From the NCBI GenBank assembly GCA_964580705.1, contig CAZOKY010000001.1:1224-65223 (forward strand): a DNA stretch of 64,000 nt, written 5' to 3'. Under the pieces are notes generated by a model. The model saw only the letters and a program-made list of their open reading frames with translations, made no database searches and was not told the origin of the DNA. Position numbers and translations under genes: made by a program. This stretch comes from Candidatus Micrarchaeota archaeon. GTDB taxonomy: Archaea > Micrarchaeota > Micrarchaeia > Norongarragalinales > Norongarragalinaceae. Below, piece after piece: positions 33,115 to 46,817 of the stretch. The number at the start of each line of letters is the position of its first letter. Position 1 is the first letter of the stretch.

Positions 33115-34014
33115 TTACTGAGTCGGAGCTGCGGGAGCTGCAGGAACTGCAGGAGTCGCCGGAGCAGCCGGAGCCGCTTCAGGCGCGGGCGTCGCCGCCG
33201 CTTCCTCCTTCTTTTCTTCCGTTTTTTCTTCCTTCTTTTCACCAGCAGGAACTTTGGACTTCACCAATTTGTCAATCGCGTTCGCCTCACGCGCCGCCTT
33301 CGCTATGATGAGCGGCGTGCTTTCAGCGTTGTAAATCTCCGCGAAAACGCAGAGATTCAAAGCATGTTGAACCGCCTGCGTCAAGCTCGCCTTGAACGCT
33401 TCGTCGTCAATGTCAAGCACGGCGCCTTCGTAAAGCGTTCCGTGATCCCAAACCGCGCGCACTTGCATCATTAACTCCATGGGTTCGATTCCCAGCTTCG
33501 CGAGAATTCCCGCGACGGGCGCGCTAATGGGTTCGCCTTTCTTCGCGACGACAGTATCACGCGTAATCACGATTTTCGGTCCCTGGATTTTCGCGTCAAT
33601 CTTCGCCTGCTTGAGTTCCGTCAGCACGGGTCCGGGAGGAAGACTCGTTTCCCCGGCGGGAACGATTAAATCGCAAGGCGCGAGTTGCCCTGCTTTCGCG
33701 ATAGTCTTCGACTTTGCCTGCTTGAACAACTTGTATAAGCGGAAAGCATCGAGCTCCGTCGTGAGCAGCACGGCACCGTTGCACCAATACTTTTCGAGTT
33801 CCTTCGCTTCCGGCTTCGCGGATTCGAGCGCGCGAGCCATCAACGTTTGCCTGGCAAAAAAGAATTTGACTTTGTCGCTCGTCTTCTTCTTGATTGCGCC
33901 GTACTGCTTGCCTGGCAAGGAAGCGTTGCTTGCTATGGCGATTACTTGCGCGCCCGCTAGTTCTTTCACCATGTGCTTGACGAGCACTTGCTTTTCTTTC
34001 TTGGATAAAACCAT
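33115..34014 (-). CDS. rpl10: ribosomal stalk protein L10 (aP0)
   Basis: P0 core. The C-terminus is an Ala/Pro-rich tail ending AAPTQ, lacking the GLxALFG tail it normally shares with P1. Confidence 0.85.
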   Translation of the reverse strand: MVLSKKEKQVLVKHMVKELAGAQVIAIASNASLPGKQYGAIKKKTSDKVKFFFARQTLMARALESAKPEAKELEKYWCNGAVLLTTELDAFRLYKLFKQAKSKTIAKAGQLAPCDLIVPAGETSLPPGPVLTELKQAKIDAKIQGPKIVITRDTVVAKKGEPISAPVAGILAKLGIEPMELMMQVRAVWDHGTLYEGAVLDIDDEAFKASLTQAVQHALNLCVFAEIYNAESTPLIIAKAAREANAIDKLVKSKVPAGEKKEEKTEEKKEEAAATPAPEAAPAAPATPAVPAAPAAPTQ

Positions 34015-34017
34015 GGA

Positions 34018-34755
34018 TTAAGCACTCTGAGGATTCTGAGGATTTTGTGAATTCTGTGAATTCTGAGAAACGTCATTCGCTTGAACTGCATGCCCTTTAG
34101 TCTTCGCGATTTTCGCGCCGATCTTGGCGGGTTTGCCCATCGTCGTCTTCACGTAAATGCTCTTGATTTTGGATTCAACTACTTTCTTCAATATCGCTTC
34201 AACTACGGCGAAAGCGTTTTCCGTGATTTGCTCGACGGGCATTGATTCGTTGCCGACGGGGCAGTGAACGCAAGGCAAGTATTTTCCTTTGCTTTTAATG
34301 GAAATCGTGCGCCTCGAACGCTCGAACAAGTCTTTGAGGTTCGTTCCCGGGGGAATGGGGCGTGCGTTGCGGTTGTGCGCCGCGAGGAATTGTCCAAGCG
34401 CTTTTCCGACTTGCGCCATGAGCTTCGGCTCGCTTAAAACGAAGTAGTCGACGAGTTTCGCTTGCTTCGGCTTGTCGGACGCGTAAGAAGCGATTTCACT
34501 GCTTGGAATGACTAAATCCGCGCCTGCTTTCTGCATTTCGCTTGCGACGACTCCGTCGGCGAACACGGCAATCTTGACTTGCTTCGGCGGATAAGGAAGG
34601 ACGACGTCGAAGTTCGGGCGGTTCTCGGGTTTCTTTAAGTCCAAGTCGCGGAAATTGAATGCGAGGTCGACGCTTTGAGTGAACTTGCGTTTGCCTTTGC
34701 CGTCGGCGAGCGCTAAGGCTACTGCTTCTCCAACCGCTTTCTTGTCGAGAACCAT
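34018..34755 (-). CDS. rpl1: ribosomal protein L1 with a C-terminal NSQNSQNPQNPQ repeat tail
   Basis: L1 core; the repeat tail is encoded by gaattctgtgaattctg DNA repeats. Confidence 0.9.
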   Translation of the reverse strand: MVLDKKAVGEAVALALADGKGKRKFTQSVDLAFNFRDLDLKKPENRPNFDVVLPYPPKQVKIAVFADGVVASEMQKAGADLVIPSSEIASYASDKPKQAKLVDYFVLSEPKLMAQVGKALGQFLAAHNRNARPIPPGTNLKDLFERSRRTISIKSKGKYLPCVHCPVGNESMPVEQITENAFAVVEAILKKVVESKIKSIYVKTTMGKPAKIGAKIAKTKGHAVQANDVSQNSQNSQNPQNPQSA

Positions 34756-34945
34756 TTTTTCAAAACCTTAAAGCCAAAAGCCTTATTTCTAAAGAACAAG
34801 TTTTTCCGAAGCGCTCTTTTGACGAAAGGACTCTTTTGCAGAGTCAATCCCTCCTGCGCGAAAACCGCGAAGTGGTTTAGTGCAGTTCGAGCGGGAAAAA
34901 CAGTTAAACGACGAACACTAATTTTGCGAAAGGTGGTTTTTAAAC

Positions 34946-35983
34946 CTATTGAAAGCGAGTCAACGTATCCTGTTTTCCAAGCAATATGTTAAAAGCATTT
35001 TCGGCTTCTCGCGCAGTATTTCGCTCAATATTTTCTTTGATGTGATGAATAACCCCGGAAAATTTAGCATCCGGTTTGGTAACTATAATCAGATCGTAGT
35101 GAAAAGGAATTCCCGTTCTAACTGCAATTGTTTCAACAGTTTTTCCAGTTTCTCGTATTTTTTCGACATAATAATCGAGAGGCGTTTTCGTTCCAAAATC
35201 GGAAGAACCCAAAAATCGTTTGAGGGCGCCTAGGTTATGTGGATTTCGGGTAACGTTGGAGGTTGGAAAGTTTATTATCAAATCACAGTATCGGTGTTCT
35301 AAAAGTTTGTTTATTGTCGCCCAATCGGCGTCTAACCCCTGGTTATCAATAAAGACAAGAGCGTGATGTTTTCCTGATTGAGTAAGTTCGGCAAGTATGC
35401 CGTCAACGGCTAAATTACAATCGCCATGAATTAGCTTAAATTGACTTTTACTGAGACCGGCGTTAGTCAGTATGTCTAAACGGCCGCGCAAAGCATCTAA
35501 GTTAGTTTTGTTTTCGTCTACAAAAAACATTTTCTTAAAAGGCGGGATAGCGGTGGCAGCTATGAGCGGAGAGCCGACAATATAATGTTTTTTAGAACAT
35601 TTCGAGCATTTTTCAGGTTGTGGCTCGCAATCTCGATATTTACACACAAGATCAATGCCTGAATTCGAAAGTAAGTCAATGAAATAAAAATTATCACCTA
35701 TGTTTCGACTTATTATTGGAACATAGCAGCTATGGGCGTATGCGGCGAGGCAATAAAGTTTGAGCGGCGCCCAAAAGTTCGCTAGAAAAAAACTACTGGG
35801 GTCAACTTCGACTAAGGCAGGCATGACCGACGAGTATTTTTTAAGTATTGGATCAAGACGGTCGGTAAAAGATTTTTTTGGTTTATCTCGCATACATCGG
35901 CGCCAGTAATTTTTTATCAGATTTCGTGTTCTGCGTCCTAAACATTTTCTCGGTTCGAGGGTTATATTCTTTTCTCGTACCAA
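34946..35983 (-). CDS. hypothetical protein with a C-x6-C-x2-C cysteine cluster, in an AT-rich island (candidate partner of the adjacent radical-SAM-like enzyme)
   Basis: 345-aa ORF with markedly lower GC than its flanks. Cys cluster CEPQPEKCSKC. The true start is probably internal (M at 35893 or 35824), because the track start overlaps the upstream gene by 100 nt. Confidence 0.5.
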   Translation of the reverse strand: MVREKNITLEPRKCLGRRTRNLIKNYWRRCMRDKPKKSFTDRLDPILKKYSSVMPALVEVDPSSFFLANFWAPLKLYCLAAYAHSCYVPIISRNIGDNFYFIDLLSNSGIDLVCKYRDCEPQPEKCSKCSKKHYIVGSPLIAATAIPPFKKMFFVDENKTNLDALRGRLDILTNAGLSKSQFKLIHGDCNLAVDGILAELTQSGKHHALVFIDNQGLDADWATINKLLEHRYCDLIINFPTSNVTRNPHNLGALKRFLGSSDFGTKTPLDYYVEKIRETGKTVETIAVRTGIPFHYDLIIVTKPDAKFSGVIHHIKENIERNTAREAENAFNILLGKQDTLTRFQ

Positions 35984-36749
35984 ATTTTATGTGACATGAT
36001 ATTCCGTTTTCCTTACAAAAGTCAAGCACTTCGTTAGCATGAGACTCGTAAAAGAATTCATTGTCCTTGAAGGAACTGCTTTTCGTGTTGTAATTCAGCT
36101 TGCCGAAAATAATTTTGTCGACGAAAGAAACGCTTTCCAAAATATCGTTCAAATCCTGTTCTACGAGGTTCGGCGTCGGGTAAGGCTCCATGCTAACCCA
36201 AGTCCGCAAACCCTCGTCATGCAAACGCTTCAAGGCTTTTACTCGCTGGTTGTAAGGCGCGCTGAACGGCTCAAACTCCTTCTTGAAACTAGCATCGTTC
36301 GAAACCAGCGTGATTCCGTACTCGTTGTCGAAACCGTATTTCTCCGCGTCAGCCAGCATTGCCGGGTATAGCCCTTTCGTTAAGACAGTGCTTCTGATTC
36401 CGTACGAATTCAGTTTTTCGATGATTTTAGACGACATTTTCGCTACTTCAGGGTAGCCGTACATGAACGGGTCGGTCGTAAAACACAAGTGAACGAAATT
36501 GATTTTATCGGCGTGCTTGGGAATCTCTTCATCCAATAATTCGAGCGCGTTTTCAACTAGTTTCGGCTTGCACCAGTCAGAGTAAGACTTTACTTTGCCG
36601 AAGCGAATCGCCATCATCATGGCGTAGCAAGGAAAACGGCAGCCGTGAGCGCAGCCTTCAACGTGGTTAATGCAGTAGTCCGCGTATTCTACCTTGCTTC
36701 GGTACAATAGCGACTTTTTTCTGATAGTCTGCATTAACCAACCACCCAA
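35883..36749 (-). CDS. radical-SAM superfamily protein of the SplB / DNA-repair-photolyase-like type (COG1533-like) with a variant Cx3Cx3C cluster motif
   Basis: INHVEGCAHGCRFPCYAMM resembles the SplB-family N..GC.HGC.YCYA motif but carries one extra residue between the second and third Cys. AT-rich coding sequence. Confidence 0.55.
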   Translation of the reverse strand: MGGWLMQTIRKKSLLYRSKVEYADYCINHVEGCAHGCRFPCYAMMMAIRFGKVKSYSDWCKPKLVENALELLDEEIPKHADKINFVHLCFTTDPFMYGYPEVAKMSSKIIEKLNSYGIRSTVLTKGLYPAMLADAEKYGFDNEYGITLVSNDASFKKEFEPFSAPYNQRVKALKRLHDEGLRTWVSMEPYPTPNLVEQDLNDILESVSFVDKIIFGKLNYNTKSSSFKDNEFFYESHANEVLDFCKENGISCHIKFGTRKEYNPRTEKMFRTQNTKSDKKLLAPMYAR

Positions 36750-36803: not shown

Positions 36804-37421
36804 TCAAAGCACTTTCTTCAACCGCTCGTTAACCGCGTTCCAGTCAACCACGTTCCAGAACGCGTCTACGAAGCGCGGCCGCTCGTTCTTGTAATCCAGG
36901 TAGTACGCGTGCTCCCAAACGTCGATAACGAGGAGAGGCTTCAAACCCGGCGCGAAATTAACGTTGTGCTTCTCGACCTGCATGATGACGGGGCGTTGCG
37001 TCATCTTACCGTACGCGAGAACAGCCCAACCGCTGCCCTCGACGCTGACGGCAATCTTCGAAAACTCGGTTTTGAAGCGCTCGAAACTCCCGAATTCGTT
37101 CTTGATTGCATCGCCGATTGCGCTTCCCGCTTCCGGAACTCCTCCGCCGCCCTTGCCTGCGGGCGCCATATTCTCCCAGAACAACGAGTGCAAAACGTGC
37201 CCGCCGCTGTTGAAAGCCAGTTCCTTCGCAATCGCCTTAAAGTCAAGGTCGGCACCGCTTGAGCGAGCCGCGTCGAGCTTGTCGTAAATCGCGTTCGCGC
37301 CGTTGACGTAAGCCGCGTGATGCTTGCCGTGGTGAATCGCCAACTGTTGTTCGCTCAAGAACGGCGCGAGTTCTCCGTAACCGTACTTGAGTTTCGGCAA
37401 AACGTATTTCCCGCCAGGCAT
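36804..37421 (-). CDS. sod: Fe/Mn superoxide dismutase
   Basis: Conserved Fe/Mn-SOD N-terminal region (HHGKHH) and C-terminal DVWEHAYY. Confidence 0.9.
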   Translation of the reverse strand: MPGGKYVLPKLKYGYGELAPFLSEQQLAIHHGKHHAAYVNGANAIYDKLDAARSSGADLDFKAIAKELAFNSGGHVLHSLFWENMAPAGKGGGGVPEAGSAIGDAIKNEFGSFERFKTEFSKIAVSVEGSGWAVLAYGKMTQRPVIMQVEKHNVNFAPGLKPLLVIDVWEHAYYLDYKNERPRFVDAFWNVVDWNAVNERLKKVL

Positions 37422-37451
37422 TACTTCCCACCTCGAAAAAATCGTTTTATT

Positions 37452-37568
37452 TCACTTCTGCAGAACCATGTCTTGCCCGCAGCAAACGAGCGTTCCCCCG
37501 CCCGCTTCCACCACGCTCACGACGTTCCCGCAAACCTCGCAACGATAAACTTCATTAACCGCCGTCAT
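37452..37568 (-). CDS. dsr: desulforedoxin (Dx, 38 aa; rubredoxin-like Cys4 iron centre), not in ORF track
   Basis: My own translation: [38 protein letters not shown]. Near-identical in pattern to Desulfovibrio gigas desulforedoxin (C-x2-C ... CC). Confidence 0.75.
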
Positions 37569-37592
37569 TTCTCTCACCTTTTCTTTTCGCTT

Positions 37593-38183
37593 TCAGTATT
37601 CCTCGCACTTCAACTGGTAAAACGCGGTCGGGTGATCGCAAGCAGGACACTTCTCCGGAGGCGTCGTGCCGAAGTGCATGTAACCGCACTCGCGGCAAAC
37701 CCACCAAACCGCCTGCGGCTTCTTGAACACCGTACCGTCCGTCACTTGCTTCAGCAGCTTAACGTAACGCTCCTCGTGATGCTTTTCCGCTACGGCAATC
37801 GAACGCATTCGCTTTGCAACGTCGTGAAAACCTTCCGCATCCGCGATTTTCGCGAACTCCGGATACATAGACTCGTGTTCGTGGTGTTCGCCCGCAATCG
37901 CCGCCGCCAAATTCTCTTTAGTCGAACCGAATACCGTCGGAACGCCGACTCCTTCAGCGATTACGATTTCCGCGGCAGTTTCACCCGTTTTCGCCTTTAT
38001 CGCTTGAATCGCTTCAAACAAGCGCTTCGCGTGAGTGCGCTCCTGCTCCGCAGTCTCGAGAAACACTCCCGCAATCTGCTCGAAACCCTCCTTCATTGCG
38101 GCTTTCGCGTAAATAGTGTAACGGTTGCGCGCCTGACTCTCGCCAACGAACGCTTTCGCGAGACACTCTAGCGTCTTATTCAT
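37593..38183 (-). CDS. rbr: rubrerythrin with a C-terminal rubredoxin-like domain
   Basis: Ferritin-like E..H motifs plus CRECG ... CPAC at the C-terminus. Confidence 0.9.
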   Translation of the reverse strand: MNKTLECLAKAFVGESQARNRYTIYAKAAMKEGFEQIAGVFLETAEQERTHAKRLFEAIQAIKAKTGETAAEIVIAEGVGVPTVFGSTKENLAAAIAGEHHEHESMYPEFAKIADAEGFHDVAKRMRSIAVAEKHHEERYVKLLKQVTDGTVFKKPQAVWWVCRECGYMHFGTTPPEKCPACDHPTAFYQLKCEEY

Positions 38184-38247
38184 CGATGCCCACCTCTCAA
38201 CGCAAACTCTTCCTTAAAAGAAGAAAACCGAGTTACGCAGCCGAAGT

Positions 38248-39075
38248 TTAAAAAAACACGGTTACGAGCAACGCGAGCAGAAGCATGTTGCCGAAATCCG
38301 CGATGCTCGTCGTGATTGGAATGAGAAAATTGCTTGGATCCTCGCCTTTACCGAAAAAGTAGAATCCCGCCGCGATGGCGACGAAGAAAAGAACGGTGAC
38401 GAGCAGAACGGCGTCTATCAACGCTATCGCGAAAACCTTGAACGCGACGAGCGCGCTTACGGCAAAACTCGCGCTCGAAATCACGAGAGCCGCGGCTGCG
38501 CCCAGCGTTGCGGTGAATACCGCGAGAAACAAGACTTGCATGAAGAGCTTGTGCAACTCAGCGTTCTTCCACCAACCGCGTTCGCAGCCCCTTACTTTTC
38601 CTTCGTGAAGCATAGTCGAAAAACGAGAGGAAATAATGGAAGCGTAATCCCCGATCATGTCGTTCAACGCGGGCAGGAGGACGACGAGCGGCACTATGGC
38701 AACGAACGCCGCCTTTATGTTTTCGAGCGCGAATCCTCCGAGCGAACTAACTATGGAAGCCAGCAACAGAATCTTGATGCTTTCCTTGATTATGGTTCCA
38801 GCGACGTTCGAGTGGGCGCCGTACTCTTTCACGTAAAAAAGCGTTTTGCGCGACAACTTGTGCTTCGCATGCAAGTCGTGCTGCAGCGGGTGAAAGTGCT
38901 TGCGCGGCAACGCGCGCAGGCGCTCGAGCTTGCGAGGCAAACGCGGCGTAACGACGACGCGCTTGTGCGCGTGCGCTTCGTGAAACACGCGCGCCAACGG
39001 GTTCCCGATTTCCTTCAAACCGGTTTTCCCGTCGTTTTTGTTTTCGGCTTCTTTTTTCCCGTTTTTGTTTTTCAT
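38248..39075 (-). CDS. MgtE-domain divalent-cation transporter, C-terminal half (COG1824/SLC41-like), separate gene
   Basis: PITTSIADFGNMLL-type D..G motif typical of MgtE TM domains. ATGA overlap with the upstream half. Confidence 0.55.
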   Translation of the reverse strand: MKNKNGKKEAENKNDGKTGLKEIGNPLARVFHEAHAHKRVVVTPRLPRKLERLRALPRKHFHPLQHDLHAKHKLSRKTLFYVKEYGAHSNVAGTIIKESIKILLLASIVSSLGGFALENIKAAFVAIVPLVVLLPALNDMIGDYASIISSRFSTMLHEGKVRGCERGWWKNAELHKLFMQVLFLAVFTATLGAAAALVISSASFAVSALVAFKVFAIALIDAVLLVTVLFFVAIAAGFYFFGKGEDPSNFLIPITTSIADFGNMLLLALLVTVFF

Positions 39076-39650
39076 AAAACCGCCAAAGCTATCAGCAACG
39101 CCGCAATGCTGGTGATGTCGCCCGTAGATGAAACGAACGGGCCCATGATGTTGTTCGGGTCATGGCCTTTCTTGAACAAGTAAAGCGTGGCGGCGAGAGT
39201 CAACGGAATCTCTATCGCGTTAGCGATTACGCCCGCCAGCAAGGGAAGGAAAACGATTTTCCAGAATACCTGTTGAAGGAAAAAGTAGTTGAAGGCGAAC
39301 GCAACGACGCCCAGCACGAGGGAAACGAATACGGCGAGAAAGAACGACGCGGCGAGGTTTCCGACGATTATTTTCGACTTGATTTTGTCGGGGTTGATGA
39401 CGCGCAGAAACAAGCCGGAACTCAAGCGCGAAGCGAACGACGAACTGATGTTCCCGCGCATTTCCAGAAAGCCGGGCAAAATAATGAGCATTCCCGGCAG
39501 CAGCAACAATTTATCCGTGTACGCGGCTAGCGCGGCTCCCGCAATGACTCCGCCGGTTAAGGAAACGAGTTGCGACGAAAACATTTCGCGGAAGTCGCGG
39601 TCGAAAAACCGTTTATCGCCCGTTTTGCCCGCATTAAAGCCTGCAGTCAT
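39072..39650 (-). CDS. MgtE-domain divalent-cation transporter, N-terminal half
   Basis: PFVSSTGDITSIAALLIAL motif. Homologous repeat of the downstream gene. Confidence 0.55.
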   Translation of the reverse strand: MTAGFNAGKTGDKRFFDRDFREMFSSQLVSLTGGVIAGAALAAYTDKLLLLPGMLIILPGFLEMRGNISSSFASRLSSGLFLRVINPDKIKSKIIVGNLAASFFLAVFVSLVLGVVAFAFNYFFLQQVFWKIVFLPLLAGVIANAIEIPLTLAATLYLFKKGHDPNNIMGPFVSSTGDITSIAALLIALAVL

Positions 39651-39698
39651 GCGTTCACTATGACGCGAAACGCGGTTTTATTGCTTTCCTCGCTTTCC

Positions 39699-40367
39699 TT
39701 ATTTCCGCTTTTTCTTAATCTCTTTCCGTTCTTTCTTGAACTCAACGTAAGAGAAAACCACGCTGAAAACCGCTACGGCGATTACTGGCGCGATTACGAA
39801 GACGAACATCAAGTCGGGAAAAACGAGTCCGAGCAAAGAAATTATTCCGCACGCCTTGAATAACTTCGCGCCGACGGCGTGAGTGCGGTTCCAAACGCGG
39901 TCGCTACTCATCGTCCACGGCGTTCTAATGCCGACGAACCAGTTGCGCTCCGCGTGTTCCATCAAAACGCCGACGAAGTAAAACAACGCGGCGAAAGCCG
40001 GAACTAAAGCCATATTCAAGCTGAACGAAACGCCGAGGTTCCACGCTAGCGTCAACGCGTAAACGTAAGACATGAAAGCGACGAACAACACGACGAACCA
40101 ATCGTAATATTTTTGGAACGCGGCGTAATTCTTGCGCAACGGGTCGAGCCTAGGCAGAATGAGGAACACGCCGAACAACGCCGTCGTTAAAATCGGAACG
40201 AAGAACACGCCCCAAAACTTGTCCATGTGACCGTCCACTGCGCCGTTCGCGTTCCAGTGGCTCGCCATTCGCTCGGGCATTGACGGGTAAAAGTAAGCCG
40301 CGAGAAGAAACGACGCGACGATTAACGCGAGGCAAACGATGTTGGCGAGCTTCATTTTAAAAATCAC
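39699..40367 (-). CDS. SdpI/YhfL-family (DUF1648) membrane protein
   Basis: PERMASHWNANGAVDGHM matches the P..HWN..G..DG signature. Multiple TM helices. Confidence 0.6.
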   Translation of the reverse strand: MIFKMKLANIVCLALIVASFLLAAYFYPSMPERMASHWNANGAVDGHMDKFWGVFFVPILTTALFGVFLILPRLDPLRKNYAAFQKYYDWFVVLFVAFMSYVYALTLAWNLGVSFSLNMALVPAFAALFYFVGVLMEHAERNWFVGIRTPWTMSSDRVWNRTHAVGAKLFKACGIISLLGLVFPDLMFVFVIAPVIAVAVFSVVFSYVEFKKERKEIKKKRK

Positions 40368-40512: not shown

Positions 40513-42693
40513 CTAATTCTTCCTGGAAGGCTTCCAGTTCTTCATCAAAGCGCTGTTGGCGGTTACCGCGACGCTCGAGAAAGCCATTGCCGCGCCCGCA
40601 ATCGCGGGGTTAAGCAGGGTTCCGGTGAACGGGTAGAGAACGCCGGCCGCAATCGGGATTCCGATCAAGTTGAACGCGAAAGCCCAAGCGAGGTTTTCCT
40701 TGATTTTCCTTAACACGAAGCTGCTCAACCTAATTGCAGTCACGGCGTCGCGCAAATCGCTTTTCACCAAGACGACGTCGCCCGCCTCGATTGCGACGTC
40801 GGTTCCCGAACCAATCGCTATTCCGACGTCCGCTTGAGCCAACGCGGGCGAATCGTTTATTCCGTCGCCGATCATCGCCACCCTAAAGCCTTTTTTCTTG
40901 AGTGCCTTCACGTGCTTTTCCTTGTCTTGAGGAAGCACGCGCGCGTAAACCAAGTCGATGCCCACTTTCTTCGCTATCGCTTTCGCGGTTTCCTCGTTAT
41001 CGCCCGTAATCATCGCGACCTTGAAACGCATTTTCTTGAATTCGCGAATGGCTTCAGCCGACGTTTCCTTGACCGCGTCCGCAATCGCTATCAAACCAAT
41101 CGCTTTCCCGTCGACTGCTACGAGCACGACCGTGTTCGCCTGCTTCTCCAACTCCAAAAGCGCGTGCGACAACGAAGCATGATTCACCTTGTTCGCTTTC
41201 AGCAACGCCGGGTTCCCCACTAAAACCGTCTTGCCTTTGACTTTCCCTGCAACGCCTTTGCCCGCGACCGATTTGAAGCCGATTGCCTTGCCGACGCCGA
41301 GCTTGCGGTTCCTGGACTCAAGGACCACCGCGTTGGCCAGCGGATGTTCCGAGTGTTTCTCCAACGCAGCGGCCCAAGCAAGCACTTCGTCTTCGCTGAA
41401 ACCGCTTGAAGGAACGATTTTGGTGACTACGGGCTTTCCGATTGTGATGGTGCCCGTCTTATCCAAAACGACGGCGTTCACCGACTCGATTTTCTGGAGC
41501 GCGGCCGAGTTCTTGAACAAAACGCCGTTTTCAGCGCCTAAACCCGAACCCACCATTATCGCGGTCGGCGTGGCGAGCCCAAGCGCGCACGGACAGGCGA
41601 TTATCAAAACCGAAACAAACGCGGTTAACGCGAAATCAAAGCCGCTTCCGGCAACCAGGAACCAGAAGGAAAACACGATTACGGCTATGACGAATACGGC
41701 AGGAACGAACACCGCCGAAACCTTGTCCGCCAACTCTTGAATCGGAGCCTTCGACGACTGCGCTTCCTCAACGAGCTTGATTATTTGCGATAGAAGCGTG
41801 TCTTTCCCGACTTTCGTCGCCTTGAATTTAAGCGAACCCGCTTGATTGATGGTGGCGCCGATTACTAGGTCGCCTTTCTTTTTCTTGACGGGAACGCTTT
41901 CGCCCGTGACCATGGACTCGTCGATGAAACTCTCTCCTTCCACGACTACGCCGTCAACCGGAACCTTGCCGCCGGGCTTCACCAACACGACGTCGCCGAC
42001 TACGACGTCGTCAACGGAAACCTCGATTTCCTTGTTTTTCCTGAACACTACCGCGGTCTTCGATTGCAAGCCCAGCAATTTCTTGATTGCCTGCGACGTC
42101 CTTCCTTTCGCGACCGACTCCAAGTACTTTCCAAGCGAAATGAAAGACAGGATTATCGCTCCCGCTTCGAAGTAAAGGTGCCCGTCGTAGCCGAGCACCA
42201 CCGCAACGGAGTAAAACATAGAGGAACCGACGCCGAGAGTCACGAGGGACTCCATCGTAGGCGAACCCGTTAAAACCGACTTGACTCCCTTGACGAAAAT
42301 CCGTTTGTTCACGAACAGAACGGGGATTACGAGCGCGAATTCAATCCACGCCGCGTTTTCCATGACAAACTCCGGCAACCGGAACAAGTTGAAATCCGCG
42401 AGCATGAACAAGAGCAGCGGAAAACTGAAGACCGCCGACAACAGGAAGCGCTTCCAGTACGCCGCCGACTCATCTTCCTCTTTTTTCGCGTTCGCTTCGC
42501 CCTCGAGCAGTTCCGCATCGAAACCCAAACTGATTATTTTGTCGCGCACCGAATCGAACGACGCATCGCCTTCGATTGAAAGCGTTTCCGAGTCTTCGAA
42601 GCTCGCGCTATGCACGCCTTTCGCTTTCTTCAAGGCGGCCTCGATTTTCCTGGAGTCGGCGCCTGGAGAAGCGCCGTATATCTTGAGCCTCAA
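40513..42693 (-). CDS. copA: copper-translocating P1B-type ATPase (CopA/CopB)
   Basis: CPC, DKTGTIT and GDGINDSPAL motifs. The start is inferred at TTG 42693, which overlaps the copZ TGA (TTGA); track ORF 40513..42861 overlaps copZ by 170 nt. The N-terminal HMA-like domain lacks CxxC (IYGASPGAD). Confidence 0.85.
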   Translation of the reverse strand: MRLKIYGASPGADSRKIEAALKKAKGVHSASFEDSETLSIEGDASFDSVRDKIISLGFDAELLEGEANAKKEEDESAAYWKRFLLSAVFSFPLLLFMLADFNLFRLPEFVMENAAWIEFALVIPVLFVNKRIFVKGVKSVLTGSPTMESLVTLGVGSSMFYSVAVVLGYDGHLYFEAGAIILSFISLGKYLESVAKGRTSQAIKKLLGLQSKTAVVFRKNKEIEVSVDDVVVGDVVLVKPGGKVPVDGVVVEGESFIDESMVTGESVPVKKKKGDLVIGATINQAGSLKFKATKVGKDTLLSQIIKLVEEAQSSKAPIQELADKVSAVFVPAVFVIAVIVFSFWFLVAGSGFDFALTAFVSVLIIACPCALGLATPTAIMVGSGLGAENGVLFKNSAALQKIESVNAVVLDKTGTITIGKPVVTKIVPSSGFSEDEVLAWAAALEKHSEHPLANAVVLESRNRKLGVGKAIGFKSVAGKGVAGKVKGKTVLVGNPALLKANKVNHASLSHALLELEKQANTVVLVAVDGKAIGLIAIADAVKETSAEAIREFKKMRFKVAMITGDNEETAKAIAKKVGIDLVYARVLPQDKEKHVKALKKKGFRVAMIGDGINDSPALAQADVGIAIGSGTDVAIEAGDVVLVKSDLRDAVTAIRLSSFVLRKIKENLAWAFAFNLIGIPIAAGVLYPFTGTLLNPAIAGAAMAFSSVAVTANSALMKNWKPSRKN

Positions 42694-42935
42694 AGTAACT
42701 CGTACCCCGCTTTGCCAACCGCTTGCTTGAGTTGCGGAACGCTCGCCTGCCTCGGGTCGTAATCCACGACGGCCGCGTTGTTCACGGCGTTGACTGAAGC
42801 CGAGGAAACCCCGTTCACTTTCTTCAACGCCTTCTCGACAGCCAAAGCGCACGAAGCGCAAGTCATTCCTTTAACCTTAAAAGACGCTTTCATTTCTTCA
42901 ACCACCTCTTTCTTCAACCGCCACTTTAAACCCAA
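42690..42935 (-). CDS. copZ: copper chaperone CopZ (HMA domain)
   Basis: GMTCASC metal-binding motif; 81 aa. Confidence 0.85.
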   Translation of the reverse strand: MGLKWRLKKEVVEEMKASFKVKGMTCASCALAVEKALKKVNGVSSASVNAVNNAAVVDYDPRQASVPQLKQAVGKAGYELL

Positions 42936-43026
42936 CTGAACCTAACCGCCGTTTGTTTTTCAATACGCTTTATTTTGATTTATTTTGACTTATTTTTCGT
43001 TACTCTTTCAGTCCGTTATTTTCGTT

Positions 43027-43272
43027 TTATTGCCGACTCACCTTATTGCCTCCAACGCGCTCCTTGCTTCCGACGCTTTCACTGCTTCTGGCGCGTTTAA
43101 TTTCCGGCGTTTTGCTCGTGTACTTGGAGTGCTTCGTCCTGCAACCCGCGCAACAATAATCCTTGCTCTCGTCAGCGAGCTCCATGCCGCACAACTTGCA
43201 TCCTTTCCCCGCTGCATCGCTGAAAACCTCTTTGTGGCAAATCGGGCAACTCAAACCGTTCACGCAAACCAC
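43027..43272 (-). CDS. YHS/TRASH-type small metal-binding protein
   Basis: CPIC ... CKLCGMEL (YHS-like CGM motif) ... CCAGC; 81 aa. Confidence 0.55.
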   Translation of the reverse strand: MVCVNGLSCPICHKEVFSDAAGKGCKLCGMELADESKDYCCAGCRTKHSKYTSKTPEIKRARSSESVGSKERVGGNKVSRQ

Positions 43273-43302
43273 CTCGAAATTGTTTCAATTCACTACCGCG
43301 TC

Positions 43303-44103
43303 TTAATTCACGACCGTCGCCTTGTACGTCTTGAAAACGTCGAGCCCAAGAATGTCCGCTTGCGTAGTCTTCGACGAATCGTATTCCACGTCGAAAAAGT
43401 TCGCGAAACGAAACGTGACGCTTCGCACGCCGGGAAGCTTCTTCAACTCCCCGCTGATGAGCGGCGCGTGCCCAGGACACGGAATATCCACTTGCAACGT
43501 CAATTTCGCCAAAACGGTTTGTGTTTGAAGCGCCGCGCCAGCGCCAGAAACGCCTGCGGCGCAAGCCGCGGAAAGCGTTGCTTGCGCGTCTTGCAAACCG
43601 CAAGCGCCCGACTCTGGAGGCTGGTACGCGTCAACTGCGTTGGCTGAAGGAGCGAAAGCGAAGTTCGCCGCCAACGGGAATATCACCATGAACAATAACA
43701 GGTTCACGGCAAGCGTGGAACCGTAAAGCACGCTCAAATACTTCCAACTCCGCTTCGCTCCAGCAGCGGAAAGATGACCGTTCTTGCGCAAGTACAACGC
43801 CGCCGAAAGCGTGGCGAAAACCAGCGACAACGCAATCAAGCCGTAAAAGAAGTACGGATTCAACAGCAAAGGCTTGAAGAACTCGGTTGCGACCGTAACG
43901 CCTAGAATAGACGCCGCAATGAACGCGATGCAACCCGCGTGCGGCACTAACCCGTAAACTATGCCGGAAAGCGCGCCGCTCTTCTTGCCTTCGCCGCCTT
44001 CGCGGCCTTTGCCGTCTTCGTTCTTCGACTTGCAACAGTCAGGCAACTCATCTTCACGCTTTTCAGAACCTTCTTTATTACTCTCTTTCACTTCAGCCAA
44101 CAT
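43303..44103 (-). CDS. Cys-motif membrane protein with a C-terminal HMA-like domain (putative metal-trafficking permease)
   Basis: DCC and HAGC motifs in or next to the TM region. The C-terminal beta-alpha-beta-like domain carries a CPGH motif. Confidence 0.45.
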   Translation of the reverse strand: MLAEVKESNKEGSEKREDELPDCCKSKNEDGKGREGGEGKKSGALSGIVYGLVPHAGCIAFIAASILGVTVATEFFKPLLLNPYFFYGLIALSLVFATLSAALYLRKNGHLSAAGAKRSWKYLSVLYGSTLAVNLLLFMVIFPLAANFAFAPSANAVDAYQPPESGACGLQDAQATLSAACAAGVSGAGAALQTQTVLAKLTLQVDIPCPGHAPLISGELKKLPGVRSVTFRFANFFDVEYDSSKTTQADILGLDVFKTYKATVVN

Positions 44104-44276
44104 TTCTTACCACCCGCGTCCAACGAGCAACCGCACGCAACGCGAAACCGCTTAACGCGGATTCCCGCACGCGCTAACGTCGAACGCGAGATTAACAACC
44201 AGGAAACGGCTTATTACCAATAGCGTGAAACTAGTTTCAGCTCGAAAACCGCTTTCAAACAGGCTTCAAACAGGCT

Positions 44277-44816
44277 TCAAACGGGTTTCAAGACGACGAC
44301 GTTCGTCATCCCGCGCCTGCGGCGCTCGATTAATCCTTTTACTTCAAGCGAGTCGAGAACGCGCGTAACCTTCACTTTACCCAAACTCGTTTTGTCAACG
44401 AGTTCAGACTGCAGCGCTGAACCGCCGCCGTCAATGATTAAGCCTAAAACCGTTTTCTGTTCGTCGTCAAGCTCGCGCATCACCGCCGCGTAATTCTCGC
44501 GCGACGGCTTTTTCGCCGCCGCCTGCGCCGCAGGCTGCTTTATCGTCTTCACGATTACCGACGGGGGTTTGTCGTCGCGCGCGAAGAAAACCAGGTAAAG
44601 CCCGGCAGCGATTACGAGCGCCATGACTGCGAGCCCAACATTCGTTTGGAAATTAAGCGTTCCCCACATGGGGCACGTAGTTCCGTGCGAACACGACGAG
44701 TTAACGATGTCCGTCAACGCGCGATTAAACAAGAAAACTATTAACCCGATGAGCGCGGCTATGGCGATTACGATTAATCCGACAGTCCGATTCCTCACGC
44801 CAACATCACCCGACAA
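44277..44816 (-). CDS. membrane-anchored winged-helix transcriptional regulator with a Cys/His motif (candidate metal sensor)
   Basis: Two TM helices flank CSHGTTCPMWG. The C-terminal wHTH (LVDKTSLGKVKVTRVLDSLEVKGLIERRR) is MarR/TrmB-like. Confidence 0.55.
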   Translation of the reverse strand: MSGDVGVRNRTVGLIVIAIAALIGLIVFLFNRALTDIVNSSCSHGTTCPMWGTLNFQTNVGLAVMALVIAAGLYLVFFARDDKPPSVIVKTIKQPAAQAAAKKPSRENYAAVMRELDDEQKTVLGLIIDGGGSALQSELVDKTSLGKVKVTRVLDSLEVKGLIERRRRGMTNVVVLKPV

Positions 44817-45728: not shown

Positions 45729-46817
45729 TCAAACGCTCGAGAAAGCATTATAGTAAGCTTCATTGTTTTTAACCCATTCGGGAACGCCGCAAGAACGCAA
45801 CGCGCGCTTTCCGAAAGGCAAACCCTGCGAAAGCAGCCAAGAAACAATCGCACGGCTGCAAACCAAGCAACGATAACTACGCGCGCCCGTCTTCGTCGCG
45901 TAAGGAACGCGCAAACCGAATTCTTCCTCAATCACGCCCGCAAAATCGCGCAGCAGTTTTTCCGAAGACGAAACCACGTAAAACTGTTTTCCGTTGCGGA
46001 TAACGTTTCCGTAACGCATGACGTAAGCCAGCAACTTCGCCAAATTCGCGTTCAGTTGAACGGGAATCTCAACGCGCCATTTTTCAGGTTGTTTTTCGGC
46101 GTCAAAACGAAAATCGTTAAACCACAAAGCGTTTTTGTAACCAAGAGGTGCTACAGAATGCGTTTCAGCGACCTTGCGCAACAAGCTGTTTTTCACTGCA
46201 TCACAACCGAAATCGACTTCTCGCTCGAAAGCAGGCAACGACTTGGTTCGAATAAGGAAACTCAACGCCGCCGTGGTTTTACCATCTTTCCTCAGGTTTC
46301 CAGGTTGAAGCCAAGTTCGAGAAGTCGCCACGCCGAATGTTCGTAGCATTTCCTTCAAGTCTTCAACGAAAGCGATTCCTCCGTCAAGCAATTCCTCGCT
46401 CTTGAAAACCTTGAAGCCGACGCTGAAAGAATAGGCATTGCTTTTCTTCGAAATCCAACCCTCGCATTGAAAAGCAGTCGCGAGGTAAGCACGGGAAAAC
46501 GCTCGATTTTCTTTGATCCAACGCGGGACTCGAAAAACGCAAAGCATTTTGTCTCCTTTCGGCGCCCCTGCTTCGAACAACAACCTGCTGACCCGCACGC
46601 TGTTAAAACGGCACTTGAAACTCGTTCCGAAACCAGTGCCTTTCGCGTAACTAGATTTCAAATCGAACTTATTTTTTACCAACGCCTCGAAGTCTTTCAA
46701 CGCTTGCCAGTCGGCAGAAGACAGGTAGAAGTGAGAAAGATTTTTACTTAAGTGGCCGTCGAACGTCACGTAACTAATTATTCGCGCCAAATCAGCGTCA
46801 AAAAAAGTAGAGTTCAC
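45729..46817 (-). CDS. LAGLIDADG-like (double-motif) homing-endonuclease-family protein, free-standing
   Basis: ARIISYVTFDGHLS and AYLATAFQCEGWIS resemble the two LAGLIDADG helices. A possible degenerate third repeat (LLAYVMRYGNVI). 362 aa; immediately 3' of two tRNA genes. Confidence 0.4.
   Translation of the reverse strand: MNSTFFDADLARIISYVTFDGHLSKNLSHFYLSSADWQALKDFEALVKNKFDLKSSYAKGTGFGTSFKCRFNSVRVSRLLFEAGAPKGDKMLCVFRVPRWIKENRAFSRAYLATAFQCEGWISKKSNAYSFSVGFKVFKSEELLDGGIAFVEDLKEMLRTFGVATSRTWLQPGNLRKDGKTTAALSFLIRTKSLPAFEREVDFGCDAVKNSLLRKVAETHSVAPLGYKNALWFNDFRFDAEKQPEKWRVEIPVQLNANLAKLLAYVMRYGNVIRNGKQFYVVSSSEKLLRDFAGVIEEEFGLRVPYATKTGARSYRCLVCSRAIVSWLLSQGLPFGKRALRSCGVPEWVKNNEAYYNAFSSV

What the first reader, a model, noticed from the sequence alone, without database searches (positions are those of the whole stretch)
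40513..44816. Copper-resistance island with a membrane-bound wHTH sensor and a CopA whose N-terminal HMA domain has lost its CxxC
The gene order on the minus strand is: a regulator (2 TM + CSHGTTCPMWG + C-terminal winged helix), a Cys-motif membrane protein with a C-terminal HMA-like domain (DCC, HAGC, CPGH), a YHS/TRASH mini-protein, CopZ (GMTCASC), and CopA.

The CopA N-terminal metal-binding domain reads IYGASPGAD where GMTCASC is expected. Its inferred start, TTG, overlaps the copZ stop (TTGA). A membrane-embedded one-component metal sensor of this type is unusual.
Basis: seen in the sequence. Interest (0 to 1): 0.55.

Follow-up and report, generated by a model that had tools for sequence, protein, structure and literature searches.

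The report
Membrane-anchored copper-sensing regulator with operator
A tiny archaeon (Micrarchaeota, DPANN) carries a copper-export gene cluster whose switch appears to be an undescribed but widespread membrane-embedded DNA-binding protein that probably senses copper outside the cell and sits on a strikingly conserved DNA site wrapped around the cluster's promoter.

Summary
The cluster on the minus strand is regulator, 3-TM membrane protein, Cys-rich mini-protein, CopZ, CopA.

The CopA N-domain is a real degenerate HMA domain, not an error. An independent assembly has the same junction. The nearest relatives also lack ligands. One relative has the same TTGA overlap and another has an ATG at the same position. 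CopZ plus CopA is colinear with a 791-aa two-HMA CopA, which points to gene fission.

The main result is the regulator. It has a two-helix TM hairpin with C-x-H-G-x2-C-x-M at its tip, then a MarR/ArsR-type winged helix. Relatives occur in 568 species genomes (DPANN, Methanofastidiosa), nearly always just upstream of copper genes.

I found its likely operator: the palindrome GAAACTAGTTTC, a 19-nt spacer holding the TATA box, then GTTTC. It is present in 67 of 78 protein-selected loci. In the reverse test, 102 of 120 metagenomic matches to the motif lie next to the regulator or copper genes.

I found no paper describing the family. Copper binding, outside-facing topology and the sign of regulation are inferred. 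The YHS/TRASH label is not supported by profiles.

The parts
44277..44798 (-). Membrane-anchored winged-helix regulator, 173 aa. TM hairpin at residues ~2-72, with C36-x-H38-G-x2-C42-P-M44-W-G at its tip. Disordered Lys/Pro-rich linker at 73-103. wHTH at 104-170.
   Evidence: ORF. Start taken from homologues. Pfam DUF7343 42 bits and MarR_2 31 bits. AF2 model. Foldseek hits to MarR/ArsR/SqrR/HlyU. Invariant C, G, C, M, W and >=90% H across 113 sequences.
44203..44238 (-). Predicted operator and promoter. Palindrome GAAACTAGTTTC at 44238-44227. A 19-nt spacer with the TATA-like box ggTAATAAg at 44226-44208. Third half-site GTTTC at 44207-44203.
   Evidence: Sequence. It is the only exact copy in the 64-kb window. 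The same architecture occurs in 67 of 78 regulator loci, with a 19-nt spacer in 61 of 68. In the reverse test, 102 of 120 motif hits lie next to the regulator or cop genes.
43303..44103 (-). Three-TM membrane protein with an N-terminal Cys pair (DCC), P-H-x-G-C in TM1, and a C-terminal HMA-fold domain carrying C-P-G-H in the beta1-alpha1 loop.
   Evidence: No Pfam family covers the core. At least 890 homologues, with invariant H55, C58, C209, G211 and H212. AF2 gives 3 TM helices and a beta-alpha-beta-beta-alpha-beta domain at pLDDT 95+. Foldseek matches copper HMA domains and MerP with TM 0.84 and rmsd 1.7 A.
43027..43272 (-). Cys-rich mini-protein (78-81 aa) with the motif C-x2-C-x12-C-K-L-C-G-M-x9-Y-C-C-x2-C. 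It is TRASH-like in motif only.
   Evidence: ORF. No YHS or TRASH profile hit, only a weak HMBD PF19335 hit at E=0.026. Homologous mini-ORFs are the first gene after the operator in L006, L019, L020, L052 and L078.
42690..42893 (-). CopZ copper chaperone, 67 aa, GMTCASC.
   Evidence: Pfam HMA 71 bits. NCBIfam CopZ models give E~1e-17. It scores closer to the first HMA domain of two-HMA pumps than to stand-alone CopZs of other cop loci.
40513..42693 (-). CopA P1B-1 Cu(I) ATPase, 726 aa. The TTG start overlaps the copZ stop (TTGA). The N-terminal HMA relic has no Cys, His or Met ligands. TM5 reads FN instead of YN.
   Evidence: The clade-level loss of ligands and the conserved start are shown.

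Best explanation
This is a copper-efflux operon of a Micrarchaeota (DPANN) archaeon controlled by a membrane-integrated one-component transcription factor.

The regulator spans the membrane as a helical hairpin, with both ends in the cytoplasm. The hairpin tip protrudes on the outside and carries four thiophilic ligands (Cys36, His38, Cys42, Met44). These most likely bind Cu(I), and perhaps Ag(I). A flexible ~30-residue linker lets the cytoplasmic MarR-type winged helix reach the chromosome.

Probably as a dimer, it binds the palindrome GAAACTAGTTTC just upstream of BRE/TATA. A further subunit contacts the GTTTC half-site between TATA and the transcription start. In this way it gates assembly of the pre-initiation complex.

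My preferred reading is repression that metal binding relieves, because a site lies between TATA and the start. The sign of regulation has not been shown.

The controlled genes are:
- a MerT/MerP-like 3-TM protein with an outward-facing HMA-fold C-x-G-H domain;
- a Cys-rich mini-protein;
- CopZ;
- CopA.

CopA descends from a two-HMA pump. The first HMA has been split off as CopZ, with a translationally coupled TTGA overlap. The pump-proximal HMA, originally of the G-M-x3-H-C type, has lost all its ligands and remains as a structural or docking domain. Copper must therefore reach the transmembrane sites from free CopZ.

What is shown: the anatomy, the folds, the conservation, and the operator-regulator-cop association. 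What is inferred: metal binding, topology, oligomeric state, sign of regulation, and the CopZ delivery route.
For: Regulator fold and motif.

Topology: the N-terminus has 2 positive charges and the post-TM2 linker has 7, against a neutral loop (read from the sequence). The wHTH must be cytoplasmic to bind DNA.

Genomic association: the regulator sits directly upstream of HMA/CopZ/CopA genes in 6 of 6 loci inspected by gene table, spanning Woesearchaeota, Micrarchaeota and Methanofastidiosum. CopA lies downstream on the same strand in 41 of 51 loci that have at least 5 kb of flank.

Operator:
- The exact 12-mer is present in 55 of 78 loci, and in 67 of 78 with at most one mismatch. About 0.001 per locus is expected by chance.
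- It lies 5-68 nt after the regulator's stop codon in 49 of 68 loci.
- The spacer is exactly 19 nt in 61 of 68 loci.
- The start ATG falls at +51/52 in about 25 loci, which places the TTATAAG box about 25 nt upstream of a leaderless start.
- In the reverse test, 102 of 120 motif matches adjoin the regulator or cop genes.
- There is a single exact copy in the 64-kb window.

Sensor module: the hairpin is found only with this wHTH. All 85 representatives are at most 180 aa apart from 3 spurious long proteins, and the core C-x-H-G-x2-C-x-M is retained.

CopA:
- Catalytic motifs are intact.
- The relatives without ligands (P0123-29, P0133) each have a separate HMA chaperone where this was checked.
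- L003 CopA (791 aa) has HMA1 with CxxC, HMA2 with GMDNAHC, then the pump. It is colinear with CopZ (67 aa) plus CopA (726 aa).
- The junction is reproduced in an independent assembly.
Against:
- An exposed Cys pair on the outside could instead form a disulfide and act as a redox sensor.
- Eleven of 78 loci lack a recognisable operator, and 10 of 51 lack CopA within 6 kb. In some of these the loop differs (C-T-E-G...) and other Cys-rich proteins are the neighbours.
- In this window the operator precedes the membrane-protein gene. A 133-nt A-rich gap lies upstream of copZ, so control of copZ-copA by read-through is not shown.
- In this lineage the regulator gene follows a HAD gene with almost no gap, so its own expression is not explained.
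- The AF2 model is a monomer, so dimerisation is assumed from the palindrome.
- The position of the palindrome upstream of BRE would also fit an activator.
Confidence: 0.62

Rival explanations
1. The regulator binds the operator as described, but the signal is not extracytoplasmic copper bound by the loop. It could be thiol or redox stress (a C36-C42 disulfide), another thiophilic metal (Ag, Cd, Zn, Hg), or copper reported indirectly by the co-conserved 3-TM/HMA membrane protein acting as a co-sensor. The last option would resemble ToxR/ToxS or CadC/LysP.
For: The two Cys are six residues apart on an exposed tip. The 3-TM protein is the most frequent operon partner and has its own outward-facing C-x-G-H site. 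Some family members sit next to other Cys-rich proteins rather than CopA.
Against: Cys, His, Cys and Met together are conserved across the whole family, including divergent members with insertions. That ligand set fits Cu(I), not a simple disulfide switch. The controlled pump has the P1B-1 Cu(I)/Ag(I) signature. The co-sensor gene lies downstream of the operator and is missing from many loci.
Confidence: 0.2
2. The membrane anchor is a holding device. The wHTH is released by regulated proteolysis within the disordered linker and acts as a soluble factor.
For: The linker at residues 73-103 is disordered and rich in Lys and Pro (pLDDT below 50). Regulated intramembrane or juxtamembrane proteolysis is a known mode for tethered factors (general knowledge).
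Against: No protease gene is conserved in the loci inspected. The linker is poorly conserved in sequence and length. Very small cells do not need release for a tethered factor to reach the DNA. ToxR, CadC and ArnR act while tethered (general knowledge; ArnR as cited in PMC13286277).
Confidence: 0.1
3. The copZ/copA split is not real. A one-base sequencing error, or a programmed -1 frameshift as in E. coli CopA(Z), yields a single two-HMA CopA with an intact CxxC.
For: The copA frame is -1 relative to copZ and stays open across the last 168 nt of copZ. A fused 791-aa version exists in L003.
Against: An independent assembly has the identical junction with no gaps. L209 has the same TTGA overlap. 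L210 has a stop, a 4-nt gap and an ATG. There is no X XXY YYZ slippery heptamer at GAG TTA CTT TGA, and Rfam finds no frameshift element there. Even a fusion would not restore ligands to the pump-proximal domain.
Confidence: 0.04
4. The CopA with a ligand-less HMA and FN instead of YN is a decaying or non-copper pump.
For: The N-domain ligands are lost. The Tyr-to-Phe change in the TM5 YN motif is seen only in this small clade, 6 of 119.
Against: CPC, DKTGT, TGE, GDGIND and MxxSS are all intact. The protein is full length and 60-69% identical across several species. It is always paired with a chaperone gene. N-terminal metal-binding domains are dispensable for transport in characterised CopAs (general knowledge).
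Confidence: 0.06

Closest known systems
Archaeal CopR/CopT (Sulfolobus, Pyrococcus, Ferroplasma-type cop clusters: Lrp/AsnC-HTH + TRASH regulator, TRASH chaperone CopM, CopA)
   Same: It is an archaeal regulator encoded beside copA and a small Cys-rich metal protein, and it acts at the cop promoter.
   Different: CopR is soluble, senses cytoplasmic copper through a C-terminal TRASH domain, and has an Lrp-type HTH (PMC5498576, PMC7830388). Here there is no TRASH or AsnC match. Instead there is a TM hairpin sensor and a MarR-type wHTH.
ToxR / CadC / TcpP membrane-tethered one-component regulators (bacteria)
   Same: One polypeptide senses outside the membrane and binds promoter DNA directly while anchored.
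   Different: Those proteins have an N-terminal OmpR-type wHTH, one TM and a large periplasmic domain, and they do not sense metals. Here the order is reversed, with an N-terminal two-TM hairpin whose ~7-residue tip is the whole sensor.
ArnR/ArnR1 of Sulfolobus acidocaldarius
   Same: They are the only characterised archaeal membrane-bound transcription factors I could find cited (PeerJ 2019, cited in PMC13286277).
   Different: Their HTH is N-terminal and their TM helices are C-terminal. They regulate the archaellum and pili, and they carry no metal motif.
CusS/CopS sensor kinases
   Same: They sense Cu(I)/Ag(I) outside the cytoplasm in order to switch on efflux.
   Different: They are two-component phosphorelay systems. 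Here no kinase or response regulator is involved.
Soluble wHTH metallosensors (ArsR/SmtB, MarR-type AdcR/ZitR)
   Same: The winged-helix fold is shared (Foldseek top hits), as is a palindromic operator.
   Different: They are cytoplasmic, with metal sites at the dimer interface. The 2024 Chem Rev survey (PMC11672702) counts no fewer than 12 metallosensor-bearing structural families. In the passages I read none is described as membrane-integrated.
Two-HMA CopA pumps and E. coli CopA(Z)
   Same: The chaperone and the pump derive from one ancestral gene.
   Different: Here there is a stable gene fission with a stop/start overlap rather than a frameshift product. The retained pump-proximal HMA has lost every ligand.
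MerT/MerP (MerTP fusions)
   Same: The 266-aa protein has 3 TM helices with a Cys in TM1 and an extracytoplasmic HMA-fold domain. It gives a weak MerTP hit at E=0.03.
   Different: The sites are H-x2-C and C-x-G-H instead of CC and CxxC. It sits in a copper context, and its function is unknown.

Membership tests
MarR-type winged-helix regulators (Pfam DUF7343 / MarR_2) | Winged helix-turn-helix fold | tested here: met
   DUF7343 scores 42.1 bits against a 27.6 cut-off, and MarR_2 scores 31 against 27. AF2 gives H-H-E-H-H-E-E at residues 104-170. The Foldseek top 50 hits are MarR/ArsR/HlyU regulators.
MarR-type winged-helix regulators (Pfam DUF7343 / MarR_2) | Canonical MarR dimerisation helices flanking the wHTH (alpha1, alpha5, alpha6) | tested here: not met
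   The protein ends right after the wing. N-terminal to the wHTH are only a disordered linker and the TM hairpin.
MarR-type winged-helix regulators (Pfam DUF7343 / MarR_2) | Binds a palindromic operator at its target promoter | tested here: inconclusive
   A conserved palindrome is tightly linked to the gene in both directions. Binding itself was not tested.
ToxR/CadC-like membrane one-component regulators | N-terminal OmpR-type wHTH, single TM, C-terminal periplasmic sensor domain | tested here: not met
   The domain order is reversed. There are two TM helices and no periplasmic domain. The resemblance is functional only.
Archaeal CopR/CopT | Lrp/AsnC HTH plus C-terminal TRASH metal-binding domain, soluble | tested here: not met
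   No AsnC or TRASH profile match. Two TM helices are present.
P1B-1 Cu(I) ATPase (CopA) | CPC in TM4, DKTGT, TGE, MxxSS in TM6; family HMM | tested here: met
   CPC at 367, DKTGT at 411, TGE at 263, MAFSS at 703. TIGR01511 scores 612 bits against a 397 cut-off.
P1B-1 Cu(I) ATPase (CopA) | N-x6-YN-x4-P in TM5 | tested here: not met
   The motif reads NLAWAFAFNLIGIP, a Tyr-to-Phe change. It is shared only with P0122-26, 6 of 119.
P1B-1 Cu(I) ATPase (CopA) | N-terminal HMA domain with GMxCxxC | tested here: not met
   The loop reads IYGASPGAD. HMA scores 19.8 bits, below the 24.8 cut-off, and only profile positions 14-62 match. The fold relic is retained.
CopZ metallochaperone | Single HMA domain of ~70 aa with MxCxxC | tested here: met
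   67 aa, GMTCASC, HMA 71 bits. CopZ NCBIfam models give E~1e-17 but fall below their exception or equivalog cut-offs.
TRASH / YHS domain | C-x2-C-x19-22-C-x3-C and a match to YHS or TRASH profiles | tested here: not met
   No YHS or TRASH hit even at E<=10. The motif is C-x2-C-G-M-x9-Y-C-C-x2-C with a spacing of 11-12. It is a motif-level resemblance only.
HMA fold (C-terminal domain of the 266-aa protein) | beta-alpha-beta-beta-alpha-beta ferredoxin-like fold with the metal loop between beta1 and alpha1 | tested here: met
   AF2 pLDDT 95+. Foldseek TM 0.84 and rmsd 1.7 A to copper HMA proteins and MerP. The loop carries C-P-G-H rather than CxxC, and the Pfam HMA match is only E=0.019.

The most novel reading that the evidence does not exclude
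This is the founding example of a new structural class of metalloregulator. It would be a membrane-integrated one-component factor whose entire sensor is a Cys-His-Cys-Met site at the outward tip of a TM helical hairpin. It would read extracellular Cu(I) and act directly on the archaeal pre-initiation complex through a three-half-site operator that brackets the TATA box of a leaderless promoter. The system is conserved, with nearly invariant protein and DNA parts, across most DPANN lineages and Methanofastidiosa.
Probability: 0.5. Interest if true: 0.78.

Novelty: new variant of a known kind. Interest (0 to 1): 0.66.

Why it matters
**A different kind of copper sensor.** Characterised copper sensors are either soluble cytoplasmic one-component proteins or two-component kinases. 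A single small protein that senses copper outside the cell and touches the promoter itself would be a minimal signalling solution. That would suit organisms with reduced genomes.

**A regulon for uncultivated archaea.** It would give DPANN archaea, which are almost entirely uncultivated, one of their first predicted transcription factor, operator and regulon triplets.

**Easy to test.** The operator is so well conserved, and so precisely placed around the TATA box, that it can be tested directly in vitro by EMSA or an archaeal in-vitro transcription system. It is also attractive as a compact copper biosensor part.

**An evolutionary series for CopA.** The CopA side shows three steps: a two-HMA pump, then fission into CopZ plus pump, then loss of ligands. 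This bears on the long-standing question of what the N-terminal metal-binding domains of copper pumps are for.

Tried and rejected
- **Sequencing or assembly frameshift at copZ/copA:** rejected. An independent assembly has the identical junction, and relatives share the split.
- **Programmed -1 frameshifting:** rejected. There is no slippery heptamer and no Rfam frameshift element in the region.
- **An alternative in-frame start with CxxC:** none exists.
- **YHS/TRASH assignment of the mini-protein:** Pfam and NCBIfam give no support.
- **Bacterial sigma-70 and terminator scan:** uninformative for an archaeon.
- **The palindrome as a terminator hairpin:** unlikely. It would have a 5-bp stem and a 2-nt loop. 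What is conserved is the sequence, together with a fixed 19-nt spacer and the TATA box.
- **Literature searches:** I searched DUF7343, COG2512, the operator sequence, and several keyword combinations on membrane-bound archaeal copper regulators. None returned a description of this family. The library lacks most subscription journals, so absence is not proof.
- **Fusion of the sensor hairpin to other output domains:** not found.
- **The locus as a simple vertically inherited operon:** rejected. The syntenic sister genome L007 has flanks 71-88% identical. Its CopA is only 51% identical and has an intact CxxC, and it has no copZ or mini-protein gene. There is no nucleotide similarity across window 40513-43300. 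The chaperone/pump cassette was therefore exchanged.

Full report
**1. What is there**

The window is archaeal. A ribosomal-protein and RNA-polymerase cluster lies next to the locus. The closest named relatives are Candidatus Micrarchaeota MAGs. On the minus strand between 44798 and 40513 lie five genes:

- A 173-aa regulator, 44277-44798.
- A 266-aa membrane protein, 43303-44103.
- A 78-81-aa Cys-rich mini-protein, 43027-43272.
- CopZ, 42690-42893, with GMTCASC (Pfam HMA 71 bits).
- CopA, 40513-42693 (TIGR01511 612 bits).

The copZ stop and a TTG overlap as TTGA, and the copA frame continues as (M)RLKIYGASPGADS.

**2. The CopA N-terminus is real and is a clade trait**

- An independent assembly from another sample (L002) is 99.95% identical without gaps and has the same junction.
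- The isolated N-domain still matches the Pfam HMA profile weakly (E=0.0011, 19.8 bits against a 24.8 cut-off). It matches only over profile positions 14-62, which come after the metal loop.
- Among the 120 closest CopA homologues, the nearest ones (P0123-P0129, P0133; 55-69% identical) also have no ligand in that loop.
- P0127 in L209 has the same cTTGA overlap with a TTG start encoding (M)KLKIYG. P0124 in L210 has an ATG four bases after the copZ stop at the homologous position. The TTG start is therefore supported by conservation.
- All three ligand-less pumps whose neighbourhoods I read have a separate HMA chaperone gene.
- The 791-aa CopA of L003 carries HMA1 (GMHCASC), a 5-residue linker, HMA2 (LRLRVIGMDNAHC) and then the pump. 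It is colinear with window CopZ (67 aa) plus CopA (726 aa).
- The window-type CopZ scores higher against pump HMA1 domains (150-155) than against stand-alone CopZs of other cop loci (76-115).
- The pump-proximal domain of at least 48 of the 120 homologues is a G-M-x3-H-C variant.

The simplest history has three steps: a two-HMA pump, then fission at the domain boundary, then loss of Met, His and Cys from the retained domain.

The catalytic signatures are intact (CPC, DKTGT, TGE, GDGIND, MxxSS). The TM5 YN motif reads FN in the window and its five closest relatives only.

No slippery heptamer or Rfam frameshift element supports programmed frameshifting.

**3. The cassette was exchanged**

A syntenic sister genome (L007, GCA_964634375.1) shares the whole neighbourhood: r-proteins, HAD, regulator, membrane protein, SdpI, split MgtE, rubrerythrin and SOD. 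Protein identities to the window are:

| Protein | Identity |
|---|---|
| Regulator | 88% |
| Membrane protein | 71% |
| SdpI | 83% |
| CopA | 51% |

L007 has no mini-protein gene and no copZ. Its CopA has an intact GMHCANC. There is no nucleotide similarity across window 40513-43300.

**4. The regulator**

*Fold.*
- Pfam gives DUF7343 and MarR_2 above their cut-offs for residues 117-176 of the listed ORF.
- AF2 on a 113-sequence alignment (pLDDT 82) gives two long helices (2-35 and 43-72) forming a hairpin, a disordered linker (73-103), and a winged helix (104-170).
- Foldseek against the PDB returns only MarR, ArsR, SqrR and HlyU-type regulators at the top.

*Sensor motif.*
- The hairpin tip is C36-S-H38-G-T-T-C42-P-M44-W-G.
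- C, G, C, M and W are invariant and H is at least 90% conserved in 113 sequences.
- In an exhaustive search with the hairpin alone, 85 representatives at 50% identity were found. All are at most 180 aa except three spurious long proteins. The core C-x-H-G-x2-C-x-M persists even where insertions occur.
- The sensor module therefore exists only in this one architecture.

*Topology.* Charge distribution (2 positives before TM1, 7 after TM2, a neutral loop) and the need for a cytoplasmic DNA-binding domain place the loop outside. This is an inference.

**5. Distribution and context**

- Relatives were found in 568 species-representative genomes. These include Micr-, Woese-, Pace-, Aenigm-, Nano-, Nanohal- and Iainarchaeota, Methanofastidiosa, and some bins labelled Methanosarcinales or Thermococci.
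- In six loci read through gene tables, the gene is immediately upstream of HMA-membrane protein, CopZ and CopA genes.
- Of 51 loci with at least 5 kb downstream, 41 have CopA on the same strand.

**6. The operator**

- In the window, 38 nt after the regulator's stop codon, lies the perfect palindrome GAAACTAGTTTC (44238-44227). A 19-nt spacer containing ggTAATAAg follows, and then GTTTC (44207-44203).
- The 12-mer is unique in the 64-kb window. Variants with two mismatches occur 8 times, near the shuffle mean of about 4.
- The pattern GAAAC-NN-GTTTC occurs once in each of the eight loci fetched first (one extra match in L001), always in front of the first cop structural gene.
- In 78 loci chosen by the protein alone, 55 carry the exact 12-mer and 67 carry it with at most one mismatch. 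In 49 of 68 it lies 5-68 nt after the regulator stop.
- The consensus is T-GAAACTAGTTTC-A-n-ACAAT-n3-TtATAagg-t-GTTTC-a. The spacer is exactly 19 nt in 61 of 68.
- In about 25 loci the start ATG is at +51/52. That puts the TTATAAG box about 25 nt upstream of a leaderless start, which is the canonical archaeal TATA-to-start distance.
- The palindrome therefore covers about -50 to -39, just upstream of BRE. The third half-site covers about -19 to -15.
Of these, 102 have the regulator upstream and/or HMA, CopA or membrane-protein genes downstream. Of 99 with at least 600 nt upstream, 78 have the regulator.
- A paralogous regulator locus (L210) has four direct repeats of ATAGTTTCA, the same half-site, in its divergent intergenic region.

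**7. The other two genes**

*The 266-aa membrane protein.*
- It belongs to a family of at least 890 proteins with no Pfam model for the core.
- H55 and C58 (P-H-x-G-C in TM1) and C209, G211 and H212 (I-P-C-P-G-H) are invariant.
- AF2 gives three TM helices, a disordered Ala/Ser/Gly linker, and a C-terminal beta-alpha-beta-beta-alpha-beta domain at pLDDT 95+.
- That domain superposes on copper HMA domains and MerP with TM 0.84 and rmsd 1.7 A.
- Relatives carry an N-terminal CxxC HMA where the window has the DCC segment. Some add a cupredoxin domain or Cys/Gly-rich tails.
- With three TM helices, the C-x-G-H domain would face outward. This is the MerT/MerP layout. Its role is unknown.

*The mini-protein.*
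- It belongs to a small family with the motif C-x2-C-x12-C-[KR]-L-C-G-M-x9-[FY]-C-C-x2-C.
- In several other loci it is the first gene after the operator.
- It resembles TRASH/FCS fingers in motif but matches no YHS or TRASH profile.

**8. Mechanism proposed**

*Shown:*
- the domain anatomy;
- the conserved ligand set;
- the tight two-way linkage between regulator gene, operator and copper genes;
- the position of the operator around the TATA box.

*Inferred:*
- The outward tip binds Cu(I).
- The signal passes through the hairpin and alters the geometry or oligomeric state of the tethered wHTH domains.
- Occupancy of the palindrome and the downstream half-site then changes, and with it the recruitment of TBP/TFB/RNAP.

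I favour repression relieved by copper, because one contact lies between TATA and the start. Activation from the upstream palindrome cannot be excluded.

For the pump, copper would be handed from free CopZ to the transmembrane entry site. The ligand-less domain would act as a structural or docking module.

**9. Comparison with known systems**

- Known archaeal cop regulators (CopR/CopT) are soluble Lrp-HTH plus TRASH proteins (PMC5498576, PMC7830388).
- Membrane-tethered one-component regulators are known in bacteria (ToxR, CadC) and in Sulfolobus (ArnR/ArnR1, cited in PMC13286277). They have the opposite domain order and are not metal sensors.
- A 2024 survey of metallosensor families counts no fewer than 12 structural families (PMC11672702). 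In the passages I read, none is described as membrane-integrated.
- Seven literature searches found no description of this family or its operator. The caveat is that much subscription literature is not searchable.
- Public annotation calls these proteins 'MarR family transcriptional regulator' or 'uncharacterized membrane protein'.

**10. Verdict**

The CopA oddity is real but modest. It is a clade-level gene fission followed by ligand loss.

The regulator is the more valuable part. It is a widespread, apparently undescribed membrane-integrated putative copper sensor, and it now has a predicted operator and promoter architecture that can be tested at once.

I rate it a new variant of known kinds (tethered one-component regulators and wHTH metallosensors), with interest 0.66.

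Noticed in passing
window 45729-46817 (-): A 362-aa LAGLIDADG-like ORF (faint Pfam LAGLIDADG_3) sits between the tRNA-Pro/tRNA-Gly genes and rpoN. It is present in the near-identical assemblies L001 and L002 but absent from the syntenic sister genome L007. It may be a free-standing homing-endonuclease insertion.
   Followed up: partly
window 44251-44282 (-): An 11-nt tandem direct repeat, GTTTGAAGCCT, occurs about 2.9 times. It overlaps the regulator's stop codon, just upstream of the operator. It is absent from L007. Its meaning is unknown.
   Followed up: no
window CopA residues 667-680 (about 40654-40695): The TM5 motif reads N-x6-FN-x4-P instead of the P1B-1 hallmark YN. Only the five closest homologues share this (6 of 119). 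The change affects a residue thought to contribute to a transmembrane Cu(I) site.
   Followed up: partly
CopA homologues P0122-P0240; L003 8492-10867: At least 48 of the 120 closest CopA homologues carry a pump-proximal HMA domain with G-M-x3-H-C (for example GMDNPHC or GMSSQHC) in place of GMxCxxC. This is a variant metal loop that I could not place in the literature.
   Followed up: partly
L209 2649-3179; L044 1055-1540; L210 3303-3773 (-) and 3774-3891: Paralogous two-TM plus wHTH regulators with different outer loops occur next to cop genes. The loops are H-G-T-C-x6-C-x-H, T-G-T-C-F-I-D-G-E-C, or without Cys. The L210 intergenic region has four direct repeats of ATAGTTTCA, the same half-site as the palindrome. 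This suggests a wider superfamily of tethered regulators.
   Followed up: partly
L042, L044, L058 (regulator neighbours): Family members with altered loops (C-T-E-G-x-S-C-P-M-W-K, or ...C-P-M-S-G) lie next to proteins with the pattern 'CEYCCG...CGCAHS...MVGGC'. L042 also has a DUF411-like Cys protein next door. CopA is not adjacent. This may be a different metal-handling regulon.
   Followed up: no
window 36804-40367 (-): A stress cluster lies downstream of copA and is syntenic with L007. It contains SdpI/DUF1648, MgtE split into two genes, rubrerythrin, a 41-aa desulforedoxin-like ORF and Fe/Mn superoxide dismutase.
   Followed up: no
window 42894-43026: A 133-nt A-rich gap with several TATA-like stretches lies upstream of copZ and has no operator half-site. 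copZ-copA may have a promoter of its own in this genome.
   Followed up: no
window 34001-36000: GC content drops locally to 0.44 against about 0.53 elsewhere. This may be foreign DNA.
   Followed up: no
L047 6633-6851; C-termini of L003 7596-8489 and L005 6580-7458: Cys/Gly-rich tails (for example ..CGGGCGVSSCGCGR) occur on homologues of the membrane protein. In L047 a 72-aa secreted peptide of the same kind lies directly after the operator. These may be extracellular metal-sponge sequences.
   Followed up: no
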